Below, piece by piece: positions 35,491 through 48,786 of a DNA stretch of 64,000 nt. Both the position numbers and the translations under genes were made by a program. Source of the DNA: a virus; the IMG/VR virus record IMGVR_UViG_3300045988_165974, positions 1-64,000 of that record; one strand, given 5' to 3'. The number at the start of each line of letters is the position of its first letter. Position 1 is the first letter of the stretch. The notes beneath the pieces were generated by a model that searched no databases, was not told where the DNA came from, and saw only the letters and a program-made list of their open reading frames with translations.

Positions 35491-36730
35491 CATATTGTTA
35501 TTAACCAATGGCTTTTTATCCATTGCTCTGGAGATTTCTCTCATTTGAAATTATCTTATCGGTTGGTCAATTCCAACCCAGATTGGCGTACATTTTTATT
35601 CTCTAATATTTATATGGCGAATATCGAATACTCTTGTTGATATTATATTCTGTGGAGGATGGCTATTCCCCAAACAGGTTCAATCAATACGCTCTACGAT
35701 ACTAATAACTCTTTAATTTTATTAGTTATCTCGGTATTTTCTTTTCTAATATTGAATTTATTTCTTTAACTTGTGAGTAATTAATCCTTATTAAATTAAT
35801 GTCATTCTTCTTACAAAAATTATTTTTTATGACATCATGCTTTTGTCTAATTTTAAATTTTTCTTTTCCTCCATAAAAATCGGTCGGTCTATAATGTTGT
35901 TCTCCATCAAATTCGATTGCAATATTAAAGTCATTTAAATAAAAATCAAAAGGGAGTGGACGAATATCTTTACAATACTTAAATTTATATTCTTTTTCAT
36001 ATTGTATATTATTCTTATCCAACCGTTCTGAAATTTTTATAACTCCAACACTTTCTTTTGATTGACAATTTGGACACTTTATTGTTTTCCCATTAAAATT
36101 TGAAAAAGCTCTAGTAAAAACACATCCACAATCTTCGTGTTTTAATGTTACTTTTCTTTGTGTATTAATTTCAATAATTTTAAATCCTTGATTATTTTTA
36201 TTTAAAACATTTTGCATATCTTCTATTGTTAATGTTTTATTTTTGCTTTCACATCTAGGACATATTACTTTTCTGTTTAAAAATCCTTTTAAATTTCTCT
36301 TAAAAACAAAATTACATTTCTTATGTTTTAAAGTTAAATAAGATTTATGAATACCATTGTATTCTAAATTAATTAATTCATAATCTTCTCCTATTTTTGA
36401 ATAAATATCTTCTAAAACTTTTTCAATAGGCTTGAACATTTTTGAGTTTGCATTTTCCTTAGAACAATCATTACATTGTATTTTATCTTGATTTTTAATG
36501 TTATAAAAATTTCTCTCAAAAATCTTTCCACATTTACATCTTAAAATTAATTTTTCAGAACCATTTTTATATTCTTTTGATAGCAACTCACAATCGGAAT
36601 TTTCTTCAATATAAGATTTTACTTGTTCATATGTAAATTTACTCATATTAACTCCTTTAAAGATTTTTACCGATATTACTCGATTACGGCTATAAGCACC
36701 CATATTTTACTTATAGCTAGGCAAAAGTTT
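35491..36730 (-). mobile_element. group-I-like intron (terL intron 3, family B 3' module) with a zinc-ribbon/PD-(D/E)xK endonuclease ORF
   Basis: The 5' exon ends GGATGGT. The intron ends GTTAATAACAATATG. 35491-35725 is homologous to 18180-18536 and 38428-38677. Confidence 0.65.
35726..36646 (-). CDS. intron-encoded homing endonuclease: zinc-ribbon repeats plus PD-(D/E)xK-like nuclease
   Basis: Start trimmed to the ATG after AAAGGAG (MSKFTYEQVKSYIEEN...). The C-terminus RPLPFDFYLNDFNIAIEFDGEQHY...LIRINY is paralogous to 14559 and 16627. Confidence 0.65.
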   Translation of the reverse strand: MSKFTYEQVKSYIEENSDCELLSKEYKNGSEKLILRCKCGKIFERNFYNIKNQDKIQCNDCSKENANSKMFKPIEKVLEDIYSKIGEDYELINLEYNGIHKSYLTLKHKKCNFVFKRNLKGFLNRKVICPRCESKNKTLTIEDMQNVLNKNNQGFKIIEINTQRKVTLKHEDCGCVFTRAFSNFNGKTIKCPNCQSKESVGVIKISERLDKNNIQYEKEYKFKYCKDIRPLPFDFYLNDFNIAIEFDGEQHYRPTDFYGGKEKFKIRQKHDVIKNNFCKKNDINLIRINYSQVKEINSILEKKIPR

Positions 36731-38427: not shown

Positions 38428-39738
38428 CGATTGTTATTAACTGTAAGTTTTTTACCTTACACTCTGGAGGTTTCCCTCATTTGAAGTTATCTAATCGGTA
38501 TGTTAATTCATACCCAGTCTAGCATACACCTTCACCCTCGTTTAACGTTAGGAGATTAGATTTTACTCTATATCTAATAATTCTTTAAATTATTGTGTCG
38601 GAGGCTCGTGTTAGTATTATATTCTGCATAACAGTTTCAACTATAATGCGTTACGAATTCTAAATCCTTTTAAAGACTTAGTTCATCTCGGTATTAGCAT
38701 ATTTATTAATATAGAATCGAACAGTAGTATCACTAACATTCAATTCTTTTGATATTTCATCTATTGTATTATTCTTTTTAAAATACATGTCAATAATTTT
38801 ATTTTTTATTTTTGAAGTAATCTTTTGATTATAATTATAAGGATTAGAAACACCTCTAAGATAACCATTTACAGTACTACTAGGCAATTTTACAATATTT
38901 ATAATTTCACATTCTCTTAGTCCTTGTTCTTTTAATCTCATAACTTCATCATATTTTTTTAATCTTTCTTCATATGCTATTTGTTTTGTATTTCTATTTT
39001 CATATACAACCTTTTCTACAACACTTGAAGTATATCCTTCTGATGAAACTATTTCACAAATTCTCATACCACTATCATACAATTTTAAAATTTTTTCATT
39101 TCTTTCTTGTATAAGCTTCTTTTTCATTTTGTACATTAGTGGGTTTAATTCAGGATTTATATATTTAAAAATATTTCCTCTCGCAATTTTATCAATTTGA
39201 GATTTTGAGGTATTAAAAATTTTAGCAATTTCTTTTCTATCCATTAAGTTATATATTAAAAGTTTAATTCTTCTTATATCAGATTCAGATAGTTTGGAAT
39301 GTTTCATTCTTTTAGTATTACTTAACTTGATTCTACTTTCTATTGACATAGTTCCACCACCTTCTCCTCCTTCGGTAAGATTATACCCAAAATTTGGATT
39401 AGCAGTATTGAATTTATCAATATAAAACATTTCTTTATCATTTAATTCTTCTTTAGTTGTCTCTTCTAGTAATTCAAAAATAAAACTTTCTTTTCCATAT
39501 TTATCAAAAGCATTTTGTAAATGACAATTATAATGTTTACCTCTTCTTAACAGACCTTTATGTGCTAATATTCTGTCTTTAACATGAATTGATTGACCTA
39601 TGTATTTTTTATTATCTTTTATATTTGTTATACAATAAATTCCTACCATATTCCCTCCGATTACATTAATAAATTTAGCCTCCACCGATTCCCCCCGATT
39701 TATTACCCTTATATTTCTATAAGGGAGGGCATTGGTCT
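38428..39738 (-). mobile_element. group-I-like intron (terL intron 1, family B 3' module) with a GIY-YIG endonuclease ORF
   Basis: The 5' exon ends AGGGGT. A candidate internal guide GCCCU lies 8 nt downstream. The intron ends GTTAATAACAATCG. It splits the Walker A motif. Confidence 0.7.
38678..39649 (-). CDS. intron-encoded GIY-YIG homing endonuclease with repeated C-terminal HTH modules
   Basis: Start trimmed to the ATG after GGAGGG (MVGIYCITNIKDNKKYIGQSIHVKDRILAH...NLTEGGEGG). Three or more HTH-like repeats follow (RKEIAKIFNTSKSQI, ICEIVSSEGYTSSVV, IDEISKELNVSDTTV). Confidence 0.8.
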   Translation of the reverse strand: MVGIYCITNIKDNKKYIGQSIHVKDRILAHKGLLRRGKHYNCHLQNAFDKYGKESFIFELLEETTKEELNDKEMFYIDKFNTANPNFGYNLTEGGEGGGTMSIESRIKLSNTKRMKHSKLSESDIRRIKLLIYNLMDRKEIAKIFNTSKSQIDKIARGNIFKYINPELNPLMYKMKKKLIQERNEKILKLYDSGMRICEIVSSEGYTSSVVEKVVYENRNTKQIAYEERLKKYDEVMRLKEQGLRECEIINIVKLPSSTVNGYLRGVSNPYNYNQKITSKIKNKIIDMYFKKNNTIDEISKELNVSDTTVRFYINKYANTEMN

Positions 39739-42193: not shown

Positions 42194-42330
42194 TGGAAAC
42201 AGTTGGATTTGAACCAACACCCTCTTCTTGACCTATAAGATTTAATTTCTTCTTTTAAATATATTGCTGTATGTGTCCCATAATCCCACTAGACACATAA
42301 TTATTTGTGCTACCATTACACCATGTTTCC
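42194..42330 (-). ncRNA. tRNA-like gene with ~75-nt insert in the anticodon/variable region (box copy 7 inside)
   Basis: Acceptor GGAAACA/TGTTTCC, D arm GTGT-AATGGTA-GCAC, T arm GTTGG-TTCAAAT-CCAAC. Between the D and T arms are 90 nt including the hairpin ATGTGTC-(14)-GACACAT + ACAGCAAT. No CCA is encoded. Confidence 0.55.
42261..42279 (-). repeat. island box, copy 7
   Basis: The minus strand reads GGGACACATACAGCAATAT. Confidence 0.6.
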
Positions 42331-42453
42331 ATATTCGAGAGAGGAAATTATTCCTCTCTGTTTGTATATCTTGGAGGTTTTAAAATGATGAATAATAATT
42401 ACAATACACTTATTTATATTTTCAAAATGTTTTGTGGTTGAAAAATTAAATTA

Positions 42454-42473
42454 ATATTGCTGTATGTGTATTT
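42454..42473 (-). repeat. island box, copy 6
   Basis: The minus strand reads AAATACACATACAGCAATAT, starting at the stop codon of the Ro60-like gene. Confidence 0.6.
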
Positions 42474-42476
42474 ATA

Positions 42477-43991
42477 TTATACAGTTATGCAAGAATATCT
42501 TTCTTGATTTACTGCTTCCATCATTAATTCATACCCTGTTTTACCTGTTAATATTATTTCAAATGTAGATGGTGAAAATCCACTTACATATGAAATTCTT
42601 CCACTTCCTAGCATTGGAATATTATTTTGTCTTGCATCGACATTCCAATATATTAAATGTGGTATTTCATATCCATGTGATTGCCATTTTTTAGCTATTG
42701 ATTCCATTAATGTTTCATGTGAGCTATATTTTTGTTCACTTCTACTACTTCTCCAGCTCCAACAATTGAATTCATCAACTCCATTGTCAAATTCCATATC
42801 TGAAATTATAGCAATATTTTGTGGCAAATCTTCTTGAGATAAATTATTTTTTAATGCAGTATTTAATACTAAATCAAATACAGATTCAATATTTGTATTT
42901 TCACATAAATTAGTATCGTATATTCTTCTAACTTTATCTACAAAGTCAATTCCTTCAACTTCTACTAATCTAGCCTTTCTACTAAAACTTATGTAATGGT
43001 CTTTAAATGGACCTTTATTTCTTTCTGCACAATAAATTCCAAGTGAAATTGCTACATTTATTGGAGTCCCCCACATAGAACCTGATGTATCTACAACAGG
43101 TAATAAACTACAAGATTTCCCATTAAAGTAATCTTTTAAATTATCCCAATATTTATTTACAACATTTCTTTCAGTAGTTGAAGTTGAGAAACTATGTCTT
43201 AGTCCAATAGCTTTTTCTACGACTTCATAAGGATATAATGTAGCTGCATTTACAGTAGTCTTATCACTATTCATAAAAGCACTATATCTTTCTTCACAAT
43301 GTCTTTCAAAAGCTTTTCTATATTTAAGTCCTGCTTTACTTGGAAGTTTATCAAATTCTATTTCATGCCAATTATTAGAACTCATTTGTGTTTCAACTAA
43401 TCTTATATGATTTCTTAATTTCACTAATGTTTTTCTATATTTTTTAGCATTCATATTCAACTTTTTAGCAAAATATTTAGCTTTAAGTTTAGTATTAACA
43501 CTACTTGCTCCAAGTGAAGGCATCCACTTAGCTAATAAAGATATTGGTTTATTATTGTTCATATCTTTAAGGTCTGTTTCTAATTGATTTTTAACAATAG
43601 ATAAAACTTCTTTTTCGAACTTAGAACCTTTATATCCTAATTCTAATAAATCGTCCCATCTCCCAAACTCTGCAAAATAAATTAAATTCTTTTTTAATGC
43701 TTTAGAATTATTTTTTTCTAACCATTTTGTTATAACTCTAAATAATCTTCTTTCACCTTGTCCTCCTCGGACATCTCTAAAATAAAATAATAATTTCATT
43801 GATATTAAAGGATTTTCTTTATATGCTTTTTTAAATTGTAAAATTACATCTTCTTCACTACGATTTCTCATAGCTCCCCCAAAAGCGAAAAAATCTAAAC
43901 AATTACTAAAAGTAGTAACATGAGTAGTAGCTCCGTTTTCAGTTAAAGTATAATTTTCTTCTTCTTTTAAATTTCTTAAAAGTTTATTCAT
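42477..43991 (-). CDS. Ro60/TROVE-like RNA-binding protein with C-terminal vWA domain (DUF2828-type architecture)
   Basis: The N-terminus TLTENGATTHVTTFSNCLDFFAFGGAMR...LFYFRDVRGGQGERRLF has the TROVE/DUF2828-like pattern. The C-terminal vWA carries the MIDAS motif LLPVVDTSGSMWG. 504 aa. Confidence 0.6.
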   Translation of the reverse strand: MNKLLRNLKEEENYTLTENGATTHVTTFSNCLDFFAFGGAMRNRSEEDVILQFKKAYKENPLISMKLLFYFRDVRGGQGERRLFRVITKWLEKNNSKALKKNLIYFAEFGRWDDLLELGYKGSKFEKEVLSIVKNQLETDLKDMNNNKPISLLAKWMPSLGASSVNTKLKAKYFAKKLNMNAKKYRKTLVKLRNHIRLVETQMSSNNWHEIEFDKLPSKAGLKYRKAFERHCEERYSAFMNSDKTTVNAATLYPYEVVEKAIGLRHSFSTSTTERNVVNKYWDNLKDYFNGKSCSLLPVVDTSGSMWGTPINVAISLGIYCAERNKGPFKDHYISFSRKARLVEVEGIDFVDKVRRIYDTNLCENTNIESVFDLVLNTALKNNLSQEDLPQNIAIISDMEFDNGVDEFNCWSWRSSRSEQKYSSHETLMESIAKKWQSHGYEIPHLIYWNVDARQNNIPMLGSGRISYVSGFSPSTFEIILTGKTGYELMMEAVNQERYSCITV

Positions 43992-44058
43992 ATCATCTCT
44001 CCAATCAAGATACCTTTGTGTTTCCCTTTTGCTGATTGTATCTTTATATTATTTTTTA

Positions 44059-44132: not shown

Positions 44133-44453
44133 ATAAAAATTTCTAGCTAGAAAATAATTAAAATTAATTAGATTAAAATTCATTATACTTGGTTAACTCC
44201 CTGATTTCTTTTAGTTGTGTATCAGGGGAAAACAACAAGTAATTACTATATTAACTTAATAGGATATTATACTTCCGACATTCTTATTAATCGCTATCGG
44301 ATGTGCGATTTATTTTGTTTGCAAACATCTTTAGTGTAGTTCCCGTAAAAAACTTACTTGCTATAAAAAAAACTTTCAGAAATCACTACACATGACAGAT
44401 TATGTAGGTGGGGTCTGTCTCCATACACCATACAAACGAGATGATTTTTTCTT

Positions 44454-44519
44454 TGGACTTAATCGGAATTGAACCGATAACATCATGCCTGATAATTTTC
44501 CCCATTAAACTATAAGTCC
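44454..44519 (-). ncRNA. tRNA-like gene with truncated anticodon arm (66 nt)
   Basis: Acceptor GGACTTA/TAAGTCC and T arm ATCGG-TTCAATT-CCGAT are perfect. The anticodon arm is reduced to ATCA-GGCA-TGAT. No CCA is encoded. Confidence 0.45.
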
Positions 44520-44678: not shown

Positions 44679-44777
44679 GATATTAGAGTCTAGCATCAAA
44701 ATACTAGGCTTAATCATAACAATAATTTTTAATCAAGACTCTATTTAATACTCGTTTTTAACAGAAACGTAATTAAT

Positions 44778-44797
44778 AAATTGCTGTTAGAGTCTTT
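44778..44797 (-). repeat. island box, copy 9 (55 nt downstream of the iscB stop)
   Basis: The minus strand reads AAAGACTCTAACAGCAATTT. Confidence 0.55.
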
Positions 44798-44851: not shown

Positions 44852-46114
44852 TTAAATTGCTACTGTCTGTACCATTTGTGATGTTCTTGCAGTGACTCGC
44901 TTACAGTTACTTAACTTTGGCGTTTTAAAACCTCTTGGCATTGCTGAAAAAACAATCTTATTCCCATCAATGTCCATAAGAATTGCATATCCTGTAAACA
45001 TTCTTCCCTTAATAAAGTATTCCTTGCCAAAGTATTTTACTTTGTCATATTTTCTAAAACCGTATATTTTACCAGTTGTAATAGGCTGTTCTGAACGAAC
45101 ACCTTTTGTTTTTCGAAAATCACCATCAGAAACACATTTCTTTTTGTAAAGATTACTCCTTACATAAAAAGCATTCCCTTGTGTTGATATAGTACAAGCA
45201 TCATAATAATGTTTTTTGTCTATCCCTAAATGTAAACGATTAGTCTTTGTCACATATCCAAAAGTTTCAATAGCATTTGGATAGAATCTGAAAAGCTGCT
45301 TACGGATAGAATTCATTTGCGTAGCATATTTAAGATTACCCTTAACTTTACCGCTTAATTTAGGGTTAATCTTCTCACTATGTAAATCTTTATGACAGGT
45401 GTGACATAAAGTAATTAAATTACTTTCTTCGTCAGAACCACCTTGACTACGAAATACAATATGATGAACTTCTAATTTGCTATCCTTATGCTTGCCTTTA
45501 CAATATTGACAAGTATAGTTATCTCTATTAAGTACCATTGCTTTTGTATTTTCAAATCCATAGTTAACACCTTTCTGATACCCCCAATGTCTAACCTTGG
45601 AATTTGCAAGTATTGGATTTTTCATTAAATGCATATCAAACTTCCCTGTTTCAAATACTAAAGTTGTAATTGGTAAAATAGATTTAATATATTCTATTTC
45701 CTTTACATGACTATGAAGTTTGCTCTGCATTGTAGGACTAAATCTATCCTTTCTAATAGAATTTGCACGATTTAACCATCTTGCTTTTCTATAACGAGTT
45801 TTACGATTTCGTCTGTTTCTACGATACTTTGCTCTTTGTGTCATTTTGTTAGTAATGTCGTTTCTTACAACAATTTCCGACATATAAACAATATTTCCTT
45901 TTTCATCTGATACTGCTGTTCCTATTGTTCCACTACCTGTATCTACACCTAAAATTAAATCTTGAGTGTAGTTTGTACTGTCATACAATAGTTTAATTGT
46001 AAACGGACAACGACTAACAACTTTAGCTTTTCTATCTTTTAACAGATGTCTGATTTTCCCATACCTATTCGTAGGCATAAGTGGTTGTCCATCTTTGTTT
46101 AATACATATACCAT
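44852..46114 (-). CDS. iscB: IscB (OMEGA-family RNA-guided RuvC/HNH nuclease)
   Basis: PLMP domain (KDGQPLMPT). RuvC-I ILGVDTGSGTIG. Arg-rich bridge helix RAKYRRNRRNRKTRYRKARW. HNH CQYCKG...LEVHHIV...NLITLCHTCHKDLH. RuvC-III KHYYDAC. 420 aa. Confidence 0.9.
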   Translation of the reverse strand: MVYVLNKDGQPLMPTNRYGKIRHLLKDRKAKVVSRCPFTIKLLYDSTNYTQDLILGVDTGSGTIGTAVSDEKGNIVYMSEIVVRNDITNKMTQRAKYRRNRRNRKTRYRKARWLNRANSIRKDRFSPTMQSKLHSHVKEIEYIKSILPITTLVFETGKFDMHLMKNPILANSKVRHWGYQKGVNYGFENTKAMVLNRDNYTCQYCKGKHKDSKLEVHHIVFRSQGGSDEESNLITLCHTCHKDLHSEKINPKLSGKVKGNLKYATQMNSIRKQLFRFYPNAIETFGYVTKTNRLHLGIDKKHYYDACTISTQGNAFYVRSNLYKKKCVSDGDFRKTKGVRSEQPITTGKIYGFRKYDKVKYFGKEYFIKGRMFTGYAILMDIDGNKIVFSAMPRGFKTPKLSNCKRVTARTSQMVQTVAI

Positions 46115-46117
46115 AAA

Positions 46118-46435
46118 CAGATATTCCTTTCATTAAATTAAATTAATAACTCAGCTACACAAGTAACTGTTATGCGTACTATACTGTACTGTTACCATAC
46201 AGTTGTTTCGACTTCAACTCGACAATGATATAAAGGCTTTTTACATATACATTACAAGGCTGTTCTTACTCTGACCTAACTTAAATGTATACGATAGAGC
46301 AATGGTCTGTTGCGTCAACCAAAGGTATCATGACTTAAATATCGTAGCCATCATTTCTGTGGCTTAGTCTGGTGAACCATTTAACAGAAGCCCATAAGCT
46401 TTAGCTTGTGGGTAGTTCACTTAATTATTCCTGGA
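46118..46435 (-). ncRNA. candidate IscB omega RNA (structured 5' leader of iscB)
   Basis: 320 nt ORF-free region directly upstream of iscB. It has nested stems, e.g. GTGAAC...GTTCAC enclosing CCCACAAGCT-AA-AGCTTATGGG. Upstream is a possible promoter, TTGAAA-N16-TAATTA. IscB loci are known to encode their guide RNA here. Confidence 0.6.
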
Positions 46436-46497
46436 AGGAGATTTTTCAATTACAATGCACAAATATTATTAATAAAATCCTTTTTTTATCATAAACA

Positions 46498-46517
46498 TAA
46501 TTGCTGTATGTGCATTT
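46498..46517 (-). repeat. island box, copy 5 (~65 nt upstream of the candidate omega RNA)
   Basis: The minus strand reads AAATGCACATACAGCAATTA. Confidence 0.6.
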
Positions 46518-46653
46518 AATTATATTAACTTTAAGAAGGTACTTATCAAGACACTAAACATTATAAATATGAAACTTCCTAGAATTGTTCAATTTATTTT
46601 GAGGATTTGAACCTCTAAAGCACTTGTTTATTGACTTATTTACCTATTTGAAT

Positions 46654-46673
46654 TAATTGCTGTAAGTGTCTTT
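46654..46673 (-). repeat. island box, copy 4
   Basis: The minus strand reads AAAGACACTTACAGCAATTA, 23 nt after the preceding tRNA-like gene. A T-arm-like GAGG-TTCAAAT-CCTC lies 40 nt downstream. Confidence 0.6.
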
Positions 46674-46695
46674 TGAATGTATATTTTTAGAACAG

Positions 46696-46811
46696 GACGG
46701 GAAGTAGGAGTCGAATCTACAACCTACGGCTTAAATGGCAAATTAAAATGCTGTTAGTGTATCCCTTCTATACACATATTACGTTGCTCTACCCGTTGAG
46801 CTATTCCCGTC
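46696..46811 (-). ncRNA. tRNA-like gene with ~45-nt insert in the anticodon arm (box copy 3 inside)
   Basis: Acceptor ACGGGAA/TTCCCGT, D arm GCTC-AACGGGTA-GAGC, T arm GTAGA-TTCGACT-CCTAC (one A:C mismatch). Only 3 bp of the anticodon stem remain (ACG/CGT). The insert holds the hairpin GTGTAT-(7)-ATACAC + TAACAGCAT. Confidence 0.5.
46745..46765 (-). repeat. island box, copy 3
   Basis: The minus strand reads GGGATACACTAACAGCATTTT. Confidence 0.55.
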
Positions 46812-46818
46812 ATAATGT

Positions 46819-46936
46819 TGCCGAAGAATAGATTTGAACTATTATCCTATAGCTTCCCTGTTTGAAATTGCTGCTTATGTATTTATCAATACATCTATTT
46901 ATTGGCTATTGCTCCAACCATTTGAGCTACTTCGGC
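46819..46936 (-). ncRNA. tRNA-like gene with perfect cloverleaf stems but a 51-nt anticodon loop (box copy 2 inside)
   Basis: GCCGAAG-TA-GCTC-AAATGGTTG-GAGC-A-ATAGC-[51 nt, 46854-46904]-GCTAT-AGGAT-AATAG-TTCAAAT-CTATT-CTTCGGC-A. The loop contains the hairpin ATGTATT-GAT-AAATACAT + AAGCAGCAAT. Confidence 0.6.
46865..46884 (-). repeat. island box, copy 2
   Basis: The minus strand reads AAATACATAAGCAGCAATTT. Confidence 0.55.
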
Positions 46937-47002
46937 ATATTCTAGGGTAGAATTCCTCTACCCCATTTTTTAAACAAACAAAGAAAGAAACAGTAATAAC
47001 TT

Positions 47003-47044
47003 TGAGGTCTGTAGGATTTGAACCTACTGAAACCTTCGACCTCA
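47003..47044 (-). ncRNA. tRNA-like minihelix (acceptor stem + T arm only)
   Basis: TGAGGTC-GAAGGTTTCA-GTAGG-TTCAAAT-CCTAC-A-GACCTCA. There is no D or anticodon arm. It is preceded by ~140 nt of ORF-free sequence that starts at box copy 1. Confidence 0.4.
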
Positions 47045-47181
47045 CATTACTAGGGAAATTAATCCCTAGCATTCAAAAAGGGGAACAAAGAAATCAAACA
47101 ATGCACTATTTACATTCTTGCCAGTCATGTGGCATTTTTCAAAATCCAATTTGTTTTATTTTCTTCTCTTGTATATGTAAT

Positions 47182-47200
47182 AATTGCTGTGAGTGCATTT
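47182..47200 (-). repeat. island box, copy 1 (5 nt after the HU-like gene stop)
   Basis: The minus strand reads AAATGCACTCACAGCAATT. Confidence 0.6.
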
Positions 47201-47592: not shown

Positions 47593-48786
47593 TTAACAAT
47601 GTTGCTTTGCACTATGTTTTTTATGTCTTTCCTCTGTCTCGCATTTTTTACACTTCGGTCTATATCTATCTTTGTTTTTTGAAAAGTGATGTATTAGTTT
47701 AGTTTCTCCACATTTAGAGCATTTTTTCCATGTTCCTTTTACAACATAAGTGTAATACCGTTCTCGGTACTCCTCCCAATATTTCTTCTCTATTACCTTA
47801 CAAATACTATTTATTGTTATGTTAACCAATTGTTGTTTCATATGTAAGATTTCTATTATCTGATAAGGTTTTACATTTCTTCTGTATAGATTTAAAACAT
47901 TCTGTTGATTCTTTGTAAAAGTACACCTACTAAGTACATCTTCAAAATCCATCATGACACAAACCATATCTGTATCATCTATTCCTTCATACTTCATTCT
48001 AAGTAAGCTTCTTATCTCTTTTTCTGTCGGAATATCAATTTCTTTAAACATCTGTGAACCAGTTGGGACTAAAGGACTTTTAAATGTTATTGGTCTTTCT
48101 AGCAATAATTTGCCATTATTTAAATCGTCTTTAACTCCATGAACTAGATAACTAAGTTCCATAGTTCCGTTTCCACTTTTCATTTTATCAATTAAGTGGA
48201 CATATAAATCGTAATAATTTTTTAAGACCTCGTGTTTTTCAATATCTTTCTTTTCAAACACAACATCTTTTACTTTATTATAATTATGTTCTACTGCTTG
48301 AAATATTGGAAAAGCTTCCCCATTATATGTTTCTTTATTATTTATATAAGGAACTCCTCCATTTCCTATCGCTAATTGATTCATAACTTTTTCTTCTTTG
48401 CAAGCTCTTCTAAACAGCTCTTTACTATTATAGATTTTATACTTTAATTCTTTCTTTTGTTGAACCTCTCCGTCTATTATGTGTTCCTTAGAATTAAGAA
48501 TATAAGTACCTAACCTCTCTAAATAGATTGCTACATTAGAAGTTGAATATAAGCTATCCTCTTTTGATAAGTGAATTTTTATTTTCTGTCTTTCTTCTGT
48601 ATCAAAAAGTTCCTCAAAGAATTCGTCATAAAACTCTTTTCCATTTATCTCATAAGTGCCTAACATATCTTTCACATATTTAACTCTATTGTCACTTCTT
48701 TGGATTGTATAGTCTAATTCATAATAATCTCTGATTGACTTCCCACACAGTTTTCCATAAAAATTGTTATTATGAAATTCATTCAA
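47593..48786 (-). CDS. hypothetical protein with C-terminal sigma-region-4-like HTH and zinc ribbon (possible transcription factor)
   Basis: FTKNQQNVLNLYRRNVKPYQIIEILHMKQQLVNITINSICKVIEK is HTH-like. The terminus is CSKCGE...CKKCE. Confidence 0.35.
   Translation of the reverse strand: MNEFHNNNFYGKLCGKSIRDYYELDYTIQRSDNRVKYVKDMLGTYEINGKEFYDEFFEELFDTEERQKIKIHLSKEDSLYSTSNVAIYLERLGTYILNSKEHIIDGEVQQKKELKYKIYNSKELFRRACKEEKVMNQLAIGNGGVPYINNKETYNGEAFPIFQAVEHNYNKVKDVVFEKKDIEKHEVLKNYYDLYVHLIDKMKSGNGTMELSYLVHGVKDDLNNGKLLLERPITFKSPLVPTGSQMFKEIDIPTEKEIRSLLRMKYEGIDDTDMVCVMMDFEDVLSRCTFTKNQQNVLNLYRRNVKPYQIIEILHMKQQLVNITINSICKVIEKKYWEEYRERYYTYVVKGTWKKCSKCGETKLIHHFSKNKDRYRPKCKKCETEERHKKHSAKQHC

What the first reader, a model, noticed from the sequence alone, without database searches (positions are those of the whole stretch)
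46696..46936. Two tandem tRNA-like genes whose anticodon arms are interrupted by short box-containing inserts
46819-46936 folds by hand into a perfect cloverleaf (7-bp acceptor, 4-bp D stem, 5-bp anticodon stem, 5-bp T stem), but the anticodon loop is 51 nt. 46696-46811 has good acceptor, D and T arms, with only 3 bp of anticodon stem flanking a ~45-nt insert. The inserts are far too short for group I introns, the only established bacterial/phage tRNA intron type (over 200 nt). I could not fit them to an archaeal bulge-helix-bulge motif. No obvious 7-nt anticodon loop can be rebuilt by simple excision; candidate loops CAGGGAA and CATTTAA both have A at position 33. Unlike four of the five canonical tRNAs here, they do not encode CCA. 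Possibilities are a new small intron or processing system, tRNA genes disabled by a mini mobile element, deliberately split tRNAs, or tRNA-mimic decoys or scaffolds.
Basis: seen in the sequence. Interest (0 to 1): 0.8.

Follow-up and report, generated by a model that had tools for sequence, protein, structure and literature searches.

The report
tRNA-shaped partner RNAs of phage Ro60-like protein
The two "interrupted tRNA genes" are real and conserved, but they are most likely not tRNAs with introns: they look like tRNA mimics carrying a small module (hairpin plus CAGCAAU) that marks the RNA partners of a Ro60-like RNA-binding protein encoded next to them.

Summary
46819-46936(-) and 46695-46811(-) are tRNA-shaped genes with 42-44-nt inserts. 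A third lies at 42194-42330(-). Each insert is a covarying hairpin followed by the box CAGCAAU. Six more copies of this motif lie outside tRNAs between 42.4 and 47.2 kb, in circularly permuted form: 5' strand, NNA, CAGCAAU, 14-110 nt, 3' strand. One of them is the 5' UTR of gene 42477-43991(-).

That gene (DUF2828/DUF7788) gives an AlphaFold model whose eight best PDB matches are all Ro60/TROVE. Homologues with 33-35% identity in mycobacteriophages are annotated "Ro-like RNA binding protein".

Phage contigs fetched by the DNA motif alone hold dozens of such interrupted tRNA genes. Most lie directly upstream of a DUF2828 gene.

In mycobacteriophage LeBron the same helix/CAGCAAU unit encloses a permuted tRNA-like domain that matches Rfam YrlA below threshold.

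Orthologues of the window's RNA in five phages keep all 28 base pairs, 12 of them through compensatory changes. They encode no CCA and cannot rebuild a U33 anticodon loop.

Best reading: unpermuted YrlA-type Y RNA analogues, a new variant of a known kind. Protein binding is inferred, not shown. An intron reading survives only for a subclass found in other phages.

The parts
46819..46936 (-). W_A: tRNA-shaped RNA (acceptor, D, T arms and a 5-bp outer 'anticodon' stem) enclosing the module. No anticodon loop with U33 and no encoded CCA.
   Evidence: Rfam tRNA 53.3 bits. In 5 orthologues all 28 pairs are paired, 12 of them with compensatory changes.
46867..46894 (-). Module inside W_A: hairpin AUGUAUU-GAUA-AAUACAU, spacer AAG, box CAGCAAU (46867-46873).
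   Evidence: CM R1 33.8 bits (this sequence was in the seed). Coordinates.
46695..46811 (-). W_B: tRNA-shaped RNA with a 42-nt module inserted in the 5' strand of the anticodon stem (ACG|..|GC CAUUUAA GCCGU).
   Evidence: Parsed. ARAGORN -i calls the L001 copy. Same architecture as the L045 genes.
46747..46775 (-). Module inside W_B: hairpin GUGUAU-AGAAGGG-AUACAC, spacer UAA, box CAGCAUU (46747-46753).
   Evidence: CM R1 18.5 bits, E 0.055, not in the seed. Coordinates.
42194..42330 (-). W_C: third tRNA-shaped RNA with a module. No anticodon stem-loop; long segment between the box and the T arm.
   Evidence: Rfam tRNA 44 bits. Orthologues in L138, L140, L214-L217 keep the hairpin and box.
42263..42298 (-). 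Module inside W_C: hairpin (AU)GUGUC-14 nt-GACAC(AU), then A, then box CAGCAAU (42263-42269).
   Evidence: CM R1 22.8 bits, E 0.005, not in the seed. Coordinates.
44007..44044 (-). U5: permuted unit in the 5' UTR of the Ro60-like gene: AAGAUAC-AAU-CAGCAAA-AGGG..-GUAUCUU, followed by GAUUGGAGAG(SD)..AUG.
   Evidence: The orthologue in L138 has AAGACAC/GUGUCUU, a compensatory change. 29 of 34 such UTRs have a 7/7 helix against 9% of shuffles.
42477..43991 (-). Ro60-like RNA-binding protein gene (DUF2828 + DUF7788/vWA, MIDAS motif DTSGSM).
   Evidence: Pfam. PHROG 850 'RNA-binding protein', E 4e-127. AF2 model and Foldseek: top 8 PDB hits are all Ro60/TROVE. 33-35% identity to mycobacteriophage 'Ro-like RNA binding protein'.
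47100..47199 (-). U1: solo permuted unit AAUGCAC-UCA-CAGCAAU-[76 nt]-GUGCAUU, just after the HU-like gene.
   Evidence: The L138 orthologue has AAUACAC/GUGUAUU.
46548..46672 (-). U2: solo permuted unit AAGACAC-UUA-CAGCAAU-[101 nt with a T-arm-like hairpin]-GUGUCUU.
   Evidence: The orthologous unit in L138/L140 encloses a whole tRNA-like gene between GGACACG and CGUGUCC.
46454..46516 (-). U3: solo permuted unit AAUGCAC-AUA-CAGCAAU-[39 nt]-GUGCAUU.
44735..44796 (-). U4: solo permuted unit AAGACUC-UAA-CAGCAAU-[38 nt]-GAGUCUU.
42403..42472 (-). U6: solo permuted unit AAUACAC-AUA-CAGCAAU-[46 nt]-GUGUAUU, directly after the stop codon of the Ro60-like gene.

Best explanation
The two genes, and a third at 42194-42330, encode stable non-coding RNAs that mimic tRNA. 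They are the RNA partners of the Ro60-like ring protein encoded at 42477-43991, that is, analogues of bacterial Y RNAs of the YrlA type.

Each RNA has two modules. The first is a tRNA-like L-shaped body: acceptor, D and T arms with the conserved D-loop and T-loop nucleotides. The second is a short helix (P1) whose 3' strand runs into a single-stranded tail, NNA-CAGCAAU. I infer that this second module is the binding site of the Ro60-like protein.

In classical YrlA the RNA ends lie in the Ro-binding stem and the acceptor stem is closed by a loop, so it resembles a circularly permuted tRNA. Here the permutation is undone. The ends lie in an open acceptor stem, and the binding helix is closed by a loop that emerges from the anticodon arm. 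That is why the gene reads as a 'tRNA with an insert'.

The same module in permuted form flanks short loops or whole tRNA-like domains elsewhere in the cluster. It also forms the 5' UTR of the Ro60-like mRNA, with its 3' strand abutting the Shine-Dalgarno sequence. This would let the protein feed back on its own translation.

By analogy with Ro60/Y RNA particles, the tRNA-like body would dock tRNA-handling or tRNA-attacking enzymes onto the ring. The particle would then act in RNA surveillance or repair of the tRNA pool during infection.

Shown: the RNA structures, their conservation, the gene linkage, the Ro60-like fold, and the sub-threshold YrlA match of a sister unit. Inferred: protein binding, autoregulation and the cellular role.
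For: 1. RNA-level structure on the tRNA-sense strand. 57 of 65 embedded modules have a hairpin of at least 6 bp ending 1-6 nt before the box, against 16.6% of shuffles, with 56 distinct stem sequences. 71 of 446 pairs are G.U, and stems shorten if A.C is allowed instead. On covariance-model hits, 6 of 7 pairs show compensatory change; the covariation score is 0.872 against 0.292 for shuffles, reached by 0 of 500.

2. The whole composite RNA is under selection. Across five orthologues all 28 pairs are paired. 12 are compensatory, spread over the acceptor, D, outer, module and T helices. CAGCAAU and GG are invariant.

3. Linkage to the protein. In loci fetched only by a DNA pattern, 17 of 26 loci with interrupted tRNAs carry a DUF2828 gene against 9 of 94 without (Fisher p = 2e-8). 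In most of these the RNAs lie 200-700 nt upstream on the same strand.

4. 5' UTR copies. 34 of 101 DUF2828 genes have CAGCAAN within 150 nt upstream (7% expected). 29 of those 34 have a 7/7 complementary helix ending at the SD, against 9% of shuffles. The helix covaries widely.

5. Second topology. In 12 loci P1 and the box flank a complete tRNA-like gene.

6. The protein is Ro60-like.

7. Cultured phages and bacteria have the same units beside this gene: Listeria phage LP-064 with RtcB 1.3 kb away, Bacillus phage Tsamsa just after a consensus promoter, Enterococcus phage VRE9_3, and Enterococcus, Halobacillus and Thermoactinomyces genomes.

8. In mycobacteriophage LeBron and E. coli typing phage 1, a P1/CAGCAAU unit encloses a T arm, a closed acceptor stem and a D arm. 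The LeBron unit matches Rfam YrlA RF02553 end to end at 39.8 bits, E 1.5e-7 in a 361-nt search (1.3e-5 when 30 kb were searched).

9. These are not ordinary tRNAs. Only 6 of 67 encode CCA against 149 of 289 canonical tRNAs in the same loci (p = 2e-11). The window's three cannot form a U33 loop.

10. Literature. Y RNAs lie within 4 kb of Ro60 on the same strand and contain a tRNA-like domain (PMC4201824). YrlA lacks a CCA end and an anticodon loop and resembles a permuted tRNA (bioRxiv 10.1101/312249). Phage phiLo Ro60 binds Y-like RNAs encoded upstream of its gene (PMC12135203).
Against: No binding, expression or processing data exist; the protein-RNA link is guilt by association.

The Ro60 similarity is only structural: TM 0.4-0.5 on a pLDDT-76 model, no Pfam TROVE hit, and no PDB hit by sequence profile.

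The canonical Ro60 contact motif GNCGAA is absent.

About 28 of 65 family members in other phages regain a perfect 5-bp stem and a canonical 7-nt loop with U33 and R37 if the module is removed. This exceeds chance and hints at decoding, or at a need to mimic real anticodon loops.

Two close relatives carry RtcB, a tRNA-splicing-type ligase, but the window does not.

Many DUF2828 loci show no embedded module. My loose motif scan gave only a 2-fold enrichment near the gene because of high background.
Confidence: 0.68

Rival explanations
1. Protein-dependent tRNA introns. The module is excised from the precursor by host or phage nucleases, perhaps guided by the Ro60-like protein. The exons are joined by RtcB or another ligase, giving functional tRNAs.
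For: In about 28 of 65 members from other phages, removing 40-56 nt from the 5' strand of the anticodon stem restores a perfect 5-bp stem and a loop with U33 and R37, with many different anticodons. L045 holds two paralogues with near-identical modules but different loops, AUUGGGG and AUUCUAA, and different acceptor stems. RtcB genes occur in relatives L140 and L214 and near the gene in Listeria phage LP-064.
Against: The window's three RNAs cannot yield a U33 loop, and their orthologues conserve a non-anticodon A(A)GGG segment instead. The insertion point varies from nt 26 to 31. There is no BHB motif. The same module occurs outside tRNAs, around tRNAs and in a 5' UTR. Ser and Tyr anticodons sit on bodies with short variable arms, and anticodons are often redundant with canonical tRNAs of the same contig. 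CCA is rarely encoded. There is no RtcB in the window.
Confidence: 0.12
2. RNA processing or regulatory signal unrelated to the Ro60-like protein. P1+CAGCAAU would be a recognition site for an endoribonuclease or a structural punctuation mark that separates tRNAs and mRNAs in a polycistronic transcript. Copies inside tRNAs would split them.
For: The units lie between genes, at tRNA borders and next to a Shine-Dalgarno sequence. All copies share the direction of transcription.
Against: This does not explain the specific and repeated linkage to DUF2828 genes in unrelated phages and bacteria. It does not explain the YrlA-like architecture of the units in LeBron and E. coli typing phage 1, or the conservation of the entire tRNA-like body around the module.
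Confidence: 0.1
3. Selfish miniature DNA element (IS200/IS605-type PATE/MITE or similar) that inserted into tRNA genes and intergenic DNA, leaving pseudogenes.
For: It has a hairpin plus a conserved downstream heptamer, like IS200/IS605 ends. There are multiple copies in one region. An IscB element lies between two copies. The near-identical module in two L045 genes suggests spread by recombination.
Against: Positions and sequences are conserved among orthologues, with compensatory changes in the host tRNA-like body and in the module. G.U pairs mark the sense strand. The IscB 'insertion at a box' is better read as a deletion in L001 between two boxes, because L001's hybrid unit has non-complementary strands. 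No TnpA gene is present.
Confidence: 0.05
4. DNA-level promoter boxes, either sigma-70-like on the plus strand (TTGCTG-N17-TATATT) or targets of the phage sigma factor at 47593-48786.
For: Several solo copies can be read as TTGCTG-17-TATAtT on the plus strand. A phage sigma factor gene lies next to the cluster.
Against: The promoter scan is at chance level (35 found, 31.6 expected) and flags none of the boxes. All genes here are on the minus strand. The covarying helices with G.U pairs are RNA-like and on the minus strand. The motif is conserved in hosts as different as Mycobacterium, E. coli and Listeria. In Tsamsa the unit lies downstream of a separate consensus promoter.
Confidence: 0.03

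Closest known systems
YrlA-type bacterial and phage Y RNAs with Ro60/Rsr (Rfam RF02553; Chen et al. 2014, PMC4201824; YrlA structure, bioRxiv 10.1101/312249)
   Same: Encoded beside a Ro60-type ring protein and on the same strand. Two modules: a protein-binding helix with a short conserved motif, and a tRNA-like L-shaped domain with conserved D and T loops. No CCA and no functional anticodon loop. A sister unit in phage LeBron matches the YrlA model over its full length.
   Different: The order of tRNA elements is not permuted. The acceptor stem is open and the binding helix is closed by a loop. The conserved motif is CAGCAAU 3' of the helix strand instead of GNCGAAN0-1G within it. The window RNAs do not hit RF02553. 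The protein is DUF2828/DUF7788, not a Pfam TROVE match.
Thermus phage phiLo Ro60 with Yrl1/Yrl2 (PMC12135203; PDB 9KOP, 9L5Y)
   Same: A phage-encoded Ro60 homologue with Y-like RNAs encoded just upstream of its gene. It gives the two best structural matches to the window protein.
   Different: [quoted passage not shown] The passages I read describe no tRNA-like domain. Sequence identity to the window protein is only about 13-14%.
Intron-containing tRNA genes (bacterial and phage group I introns; archaeal bulge-helix-bulge introns)
   Same: An extra segment interrupts the anticodon arm of an otherwise good cloverleaf. In a subclass from other phages, excision would restore a canonical arm.
   Different: The segments are 42-66 nt, far below group I size, with no Rfam intron hit. 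There is no BHB motif. The insertion point is variable and lies in the 5' strand of the stem. The module also occurs outside tRNAs. The window copies cannot be repaired by excision.
Other tRNA mimics (tmRNA tRNA-like domain, viral 3' tRNA-like structures)
   Same: The tRNA shape is used for a non-decoding purpose.
   Different: Those have an aminoacylatable CCA end and act on ribosomes or replicases. These RNAs are tied to a Ro60-like protein and encode no CCA.
IS200/IS605 ends, PATE and REP elements
   Same: A hairpin followed at a fixed short distance by a conserved short sequence. Multiple copies, with an IscB element close by.
   Different: Conserved as RNA, with G.U pairs on the sense strand. 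Syntenic among relatives. Always near DUF2828 genes. No TnpA.

Membership tests
YrlA / Y RNA (partner RNA of Ro60) | Encoded within a few kb of a Ro60-type gene, on the same strand | tested here: met
   All nine motif copies lie within 3.3 kb of 42477-43991, on the minus strand. In other phages, 17 of 26 loci with interrupted tRNAs carry the gene against 9 of 94 without.
YrlA / Y RNA (partner RNA of Ro60) | The neighbouring protein is a Ro60 orthologue (TROVE HEAT-repeat ring plus vWA with MIDAS) | tested here: inconclusive
   The top 8 Foldseek PDB hits are full-length Ro60/TROVE, E 8.5e-7 to 8e-4, TM 0.36-0.49. A MIDAS motif DTSGSM is present. Homologues are annotated 'Ro-like' in mycobacteriophages. 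But there is no Pfam TROVE hit and no PDB hit by sequence.
YrlA / Y RNA (partner RNA of Ro60) | tRNA-like domain with conserved D- and T-loop nucleotides | tested here: met
   Rfam tRNA 53.3 and 44 bits for W_A and W_C. GG in the D loop and UUCRANU in the T loop are present in all three.
YrlA / Y RNA (partner RNA of Ro60) | Circularly permuted order (T arm, closed acceptor stem-loop, D arm) with the RNA ends in the Ro-binding stem | tested here: not met
   The window RNAs have normal tRNA order with an open acceptor stem. The permuted order is seen in sister units of LeBron and E. coli typing phage 1.
YrlA / Y RNA (partner RNA of Ro60) | GNCGAAN0-1G motif near the 5' end | tested here: not met
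   The conserved motif is CAGCAAU or CAGCAAN instead.
YrlA / Y RNA (partner RNA of Ro60) | Match to Rfam RF02553 at the gathering score | tested here: not met
   No hit in the window at E up to 1. The LeBron sister unit scores 39.8 bits against a gathering score of 69.
YrlA / Y RNA (partner RNA of Ro60) | Physical binding to the Ro60 protein | not testable with these tools
   Needs immunoprecipitation or gel-shift experiments.
Canonical decoding tRNA | 5-bp anticodon stem closing a 7-nt loop with U33 and a purine at 37 | tested here: not met
   W_A gives CAGGGAA or CAAUAAA and W_B gives CAUUUAA, all with A33. W_C has no such stem-loop.
tRNA with group I intron | Group I catalytic core of more than 200 nt in the anticodon loop | tested here: not met
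   The inserts are 42-66 nt and no Intron_gpI hit is found in the window.
tRNA with archaeal-type intron | Bulge-helix-bulge motif (two 3-nt bulges separated by 4 bp) at the exon-intron borders | tested here: not met
   No strict hBHBh' arrangement in W_A, W_B or W_C. Shuffled sequences give 0.2-2.4.
IS200/IS605-derived miniature element | Mobile DNA: copies at non-homologous sites, empty sites in relatives, TnpA-type ends | tested here: not met
   Copies are syntenic and co-evolve with their host RNA. The only presence/absence difference, in L001, is a deletion between two units.
Sigma-70-type promoter | -35 and -10 hexamers at 16-18 nt spacing, more frequent than chance, followed by a gene | tested here: not met
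   35 sites against 31.6 expected, and none at the boxes. There are no plus-strand genes in the region.

The most novel reading that the evidence does not exclude
A subclass of this family, seen in other phages, regains a perfect anticodon arm on removal of the module. These could be 'caged' tRNAs: precursors held by the Ro60-like ring and activated by excision of the module and ligation, by RtcB or another ligase. That would be a protein-dependent tRNA splicing system in bacteria and phages, possibly a reserve of tRNAs protected from host anticodon nucleases.
Probability: 0.12. Interest if true: 0.9.

Novelty: new variant of a known kind. Interest (0 to 1): 0.66.

Why it matters
Their bacterial function is still unclear.

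This locus points to a much larger, unrecognised branch. The DUF2828 family has at least 8000 database clusters and occurs in 711 cultured phage genomes, including Felix O1-like coliphages, Listeria P100-like phages and mycobacteriophage LeBron.

The family appears to have its own RNA recognition motif, a helix plus CAGCAAU. That motif is combined with tRNA-like domains in at least three topologies, including insertion into the anticodon stem of an otherwise normal-looking tRNA gene.

Three practical consequences follow. It explains a class of odd 'tRNA with intron', 'tRNA-OTHER' or missed calls in phage tRNA arrays. It gives a simple sequence handle for finding the partner RNAs. It also offers cultured systems in which the role of Ro60-type particles in phage-host conflicts over tRNA can be tested.

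I found no Rfam 15 family and no paper describing this motif. I cannot exclude prior description in literature not held in the library.

Tried and rejected
1. Plus-strand promoter reading of the box (TTGCTG-N17-TATATT, MotA-box-like). Rejected on strand, scan statistics and RNA-type covariation.

2. Box as the IS200/IS605 target or end of the IscB element. Comparison with L001 first looked like an insertion exactly at ACAGCAATT. Once the permuted units were recognised, L001 turned out to be a deletion between two units. The omega-RNA guide (46421-46436) has no relation to the box.

3. Known small ribozymes or riboswitches. There is no Rfam hit at E up to 1 in 41.5-47.5 kb.

4. Megablast of the region against GenBank phages gave no match.

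5. Isotype assignment of the exon-joined sequences by similarity to 783 canonical tRNAs was weak and mostly incongruent with the apparent anticodon.

6. A broad scan for 'box + any 7-bp partner' near DUF2828 genes had too much background to be useful: 0.92 against 0.45 sites per kb. The first shuffle control for partners within 130 nt was also uninformative.

7. Sequence and profile searches of the protein against the PDB found nothing. Only the fold comparison did.

8. RtcB was searched in the window by tblastn and is absent.

9. Literature searches for interrupted phage tRNAs, DUF2828 and ROT/TROVE found no description of this motif. Two reviews and the supplement of Chen et al. 2014 were not held.
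Full report
OBSERVATION

The window has 28% G+C. All real genes from 0.2 to 59 kb lie on the minus strand. A tRNA cluster sits at 41.9-47.1 kb. ARAGORN finds five ordinary tRNAs: Met, Asp, Arg, Glu and Pro.

Rfam's tRNA model also hits 46819-46936(-) at 53.3 bits, with 50 nt skipped in the anticodon loop. It hits 42194-42330(-) at 44 bits, with 66 nt skipped. It further hits a 66-nt armless tRNA-like sequence at 44454-44519(-).

The second gene of the finding, 46695-46811(-), is missed by Rfam. It has a 7-bp acceptor stem, a D arm and a T arm with one A.C mismatch. The mismatch is a G-C pair in the 98%-identical relative L001, where ARAGORN with the intron option calls the gene. It is incomplete, because there is a third such gene.

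THE INSERT IS A DEFINED RNA MODULE

All three inserts contain a hairpin followed after 1-3 nt by CAGCAAU (CAGCAUU in one).

Among them are dozens of 105-135-nt interrupted tRNA genes, often two to four in tandem.

In 57 of 65 non-identical examples, a hairpin of at least 6 bp ends 1-6 nt before the box, against 16.6% of shuffles (binomial p about 4e-36). There are 56 different stem sequences. 16% of the pairs are G.U, and stems get shorter if the other strand's wobble is allowed instead. The structure therefore belongs to the RNA of the tRNA-sense strand.

A covariance model built from 13 modules was run without filters over the whole window. Its eight best hits are the three embedded modules and five further boxes, all on the minus strand at 42.2-47.2 kb. 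On its hits in other loci, 6 of 7 pairs show compensatory change. The covariation score is 0.872 against 0.292 in shuffles, reached by 0 of 500. Slid controls stay at or below 0.18.

WHERE THE MODULE SITS

In most family members the module does not lie in the anticodon loop. It lies within the 5' strand of the anticodon stem, after nt 26-31.

In about 28 of 65 members ('class I'), removal would restore a perfect 5-bp stem and a 7-nt loop with U33 and R37.

The rest ('class II') have no such loop. All three window genes belong here. W_A and its orthologues instead conserve a single-stranded A(A)GGG segment: CAGGGAA, CAAGGGCAA or UUAAGGGAAA.

THE SOLO COPIES ARE THE SAME MOTIF, CIRCULARLY PERMUTED

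Each box outside a tRNA is preceded by 7 nt that pair perfectly with 7 nt lying 14-110 nt downstream. Examples are AAUGCAC..GUGCAUU, AAGACAC..GUGUCUU, AAGACUC..GAGUCUU, AAUACAC..GUGUAUU and AAGAUAC..GUAUCUU.

The invariant feature is therefore a helix, P1, whose one strand continues 3' into NNA-CAGCAAU. P1 is closed by a loop on the far side in the embedded form, and on the box side in the solo form.

One solo unit, U5 at 44007-44044, is the 5' UTR of gene 42477-43991. Its 3' strand is followed 3 nt later by the Shine-Dalgarno sequence GGAGAG.

Among 101 distinct homologues of that gene with 200 nt of upstream sequence, 34 have CAGCAAN within 150 nt, against 7% expected (p about 1e-14). In 29 of those 34 the 7/7 helix is present, against 9% of shuffles. 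The helix sequences differ widely.

In 12 loci the same P1 and box enclose a complete tRNA-like gene. One of these units, in L092, doubles as the 5' UTR element of the Ro60-like gene.

THE NEIGHBOURING GENE

The 504-aa product matches Pfam DUF2828 and DUF7788 and PHROG 850 'RNA-binding protein' (E 4e-127).

An AlphaFold2 model built from 39 sequences has mean pLDDT 76. Its eight best PDB matches are all full-length Ro60/TROVE structures:
- Thermus phage phiLo (9KOP, E 8.5e-7; 9L5Y)
- Xenopus Ro60 (1YVR, 1YVP, 2I91)
- the cryo-EM Ro60/La/misfolded pre-5S rRNA complex (9NFA)

Human Ro60 (9NEN) follows at rank 10 with E 6.4e-3. TM-scores are modest, 0.36-0.49. Neither Pfam TROVE nor sequence-based PDB searches hit.

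By tblastn the protein is 33-35% identical over its full length to mycobacteriophage proteins annotated 'Ro-like RNA binding protein'. Homologues occur in 711 GenBank phage records.

LINKAGE

Among the loci fetched by the DNA pattern alone, 17 of 26 with interrupted tRNAs hold a DUF2828 gene, against 9 of 94 without (Fisher p = 2e-8). In most of them the interrupted tRNAs lie 200-700 nt upstream on the same strand.

Cultured phages and bacteria show tandem P1/CAGCAAU units in the leader of this gene:
- Listeria phage LP-064, with an RtcB-like ligase 1.3 kb downstream
- Bacillus phage Tsamsa, where the first unit starts right after a TTGACA-17-TATAAT promoter
- Enterococcus phage VRE9_3
- genomes of Enterococcus, Halobacillus, Thermoactinomyces and Tumebacillus

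THE LINK TO YrlA

In mycobacteriophage LeBron and in E. coli O157 typing phage 1 (a Felix O1-like phage), a P1/CAGCAAU unit next to the gene encloses a T arm, a closed acceptor-like stem-loop and a D arm. This is the permuted tRNA-like layout of YrlA.

The LeBron unit matches Rfam YrlA (RF02553) over the whole model at 39.8 bits, E 1.5e-7 in a 361-nt search. That is below the gathering score of 69.

From the literature:
- YrlA RNAs lie within 4 kb of Ro60 on the same strand, carry a short Ro-contact motif (GNCGAAN0-1G) near the 5' end and contain a tRNA-like domain (PMC4201824).
- YrlA lacks a CCA end and an anticodon loop and resembles a circularly permuted tRNA (bioRxiv 10.1101/312249).
- Phage phiLo Ro60 binds two Y-like RNAs encoded upstream of its gene (PMC12135203).

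The window's 'interrupted tRNAs' are the same two-module design with the permutation undone.

SELECTION

Contigs whose Ro-like protein is about 70% identical (L138, L140, L214, L217) keep an orthologue of W_A.

In the five-sequence alignment all 28 pairs of the five helices are paired in every sequence. Twelve pairs changed on both sides: acceptor 2, D 1, outer stem 3, module hairpin 3, T 3. None of 500 shuffles reaches this, and slid controls reach at most 2 such pairs. CAGCAAU is invariant.

This excludes decaying pseudogenes.

NOT ORDINARY tRNAs

Only 6 of 67 interrupted genes encode CCA, against 149 of 289 canonical tRNAs in the same loci (p = 2e-11).

Apparent Ser and Tyr anticodons sit on bodies with short variable arms. 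In large arrays the apparent anticodon often duplicates a canonical tRNA.

There is no bulge-helix-bulge motif, no group I intron and no RtcB in the window. Two relatives do carry RtcB upstream of the sigma-factor gene.

CONCLUSION

The most economical account is that P1+CAGCAAU marks the RNAs bound by the Ro60-like protein. On this account:
- the three tRNA-shaped RNAs are Y-RNA analogues with an unpermuted tRNA body;
- the solo units are further ligands or regulatory copies;
- U5 provides feedback on the protein's own synthesis.

Binding, feedback and the biological role are inferences. The role is probably surveillance or repair of the tRNA pool, given the tRNA array and the RtcB in relatives.

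The class I members of other phages keep an intron-like reading alive at low probability.

The motif is absent from Rfam 15, and I found it in none of the papers I could search. I file the finding as a new variant of a known kind.

Noticed in passing
window 44852-46114(-) and 46207-46420(-): A complete IscB gene (NCBIfam guided_IscB, 338 bits) with its HEARO omega-RNA (Rfam 103.9 bits) sits inside the phage tRNA / Y-RNA cluster, between two P1/CAGCAAU units. The 98%-identical relative L001 lacks these 1.7 kb and carries a hybrid unit with non-complementary strands. This indicates a deletion by recombination between the 9-nt ACAGCAATT repeats rather than an insertion at a box.
   Followed up: partly
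window 44454-44519(-): A 66-nt tRNA-like sequence with acceptor, D and T arms but no anticodon arm (Rfam tRNA 44.9 bits, missed by ARAGORN). It is also present in L001. Possibly another tRNA mimic.
   Followed up: no
window 47004-47043(-): An acceptor-stem plus T-arm minihelix (GAGGUC..GUAGGUUCAAAUCCUAC..GACCUC) downstream of unit U1. The orthologous position in L138 holds a 94-nt odd tRNA-like gene.
   Followed up: no
window 46945-46963 and 42338-42359: Strong G+C-rich hairpins lie directly 5' of W_A and W_C. Each is followed by (C/U)(A/G)AAUAU and then the first base of the tRNA-like RNA. The same arrangement occurs in L138. On the plus strand they look like terminators. Their role is unknown.
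   Followed up: no
L002 6362-6497, L003 6212-6347, L014 19296-19421: A different 49-50-nt insert in tRNA-Leu(UAA), between nt 32 and 33, and in a second tRNA. It forms a mini acceptor-like helix that ends in GCACCA followed by TTAA, like a tRNA 3' end, and contains a hairpin plus CAGCACC or CUGGCAC. Its removal would restore the loop CUUAAAA. It might be excisable by RNase P or 3'-end processing. Unexplained.
   Followed up: partly
L009 11283-11873 and 9934-10030; L014 14593-14704; L006 10268-10486; L211 971-1522: ROOL RNA, drum RNA and a group I intron lie within a few kb of DUF2828 genes in other phages. A sub-threshold ROOL match occurs in Listeria phage LP-064. Structured RNAs seem to gather around this gene.
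   Followed up: no
loci L002-L005, L010-L013, L016 and others: Many DUF2828-carrying phage contigs encode a tRNA with anticodon CUA (amber suppressor), suggesting stop-codon recoding in these phages.
   Followed up: no
window 46861-46863 (GGG in W_A), 42216-42218 (W_C), 44025-44027 (U5): A conserved single-stranded purine motif, A(A)GGG or AAGG, lies downstream of the box in W_A and its orthologues, before the T stem in W_C orthologues, and right after the box in the 5' UTR unit. It resembles a Shine-Dalgarno core. Its function is unknown.
   Followed up: partly
window 47593-48786(-); 38678-39685(-); 35726-36703(-): A phage sigma factor (PHROG 5767) lies just upstream of the cluster. Two homing-endonuclease-like genes (GIY-YIG and HNH types) lie among the structural genes. 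Relatives L140 and L214 carry a long (713-729 aa) RtcB at the position upstream of the sigma factor gene. L140's has a LAGLIDADG hit suggesting an intein. The window lacks RtcB.
   Followed up: partly
L001 9782-9854 versus window about 44135-44140: The close relative L001 has a tRNA-Gln(UUG) that is absent from the window, so the tRNA content differs between phages that are 98% identical.
   Followed up: no
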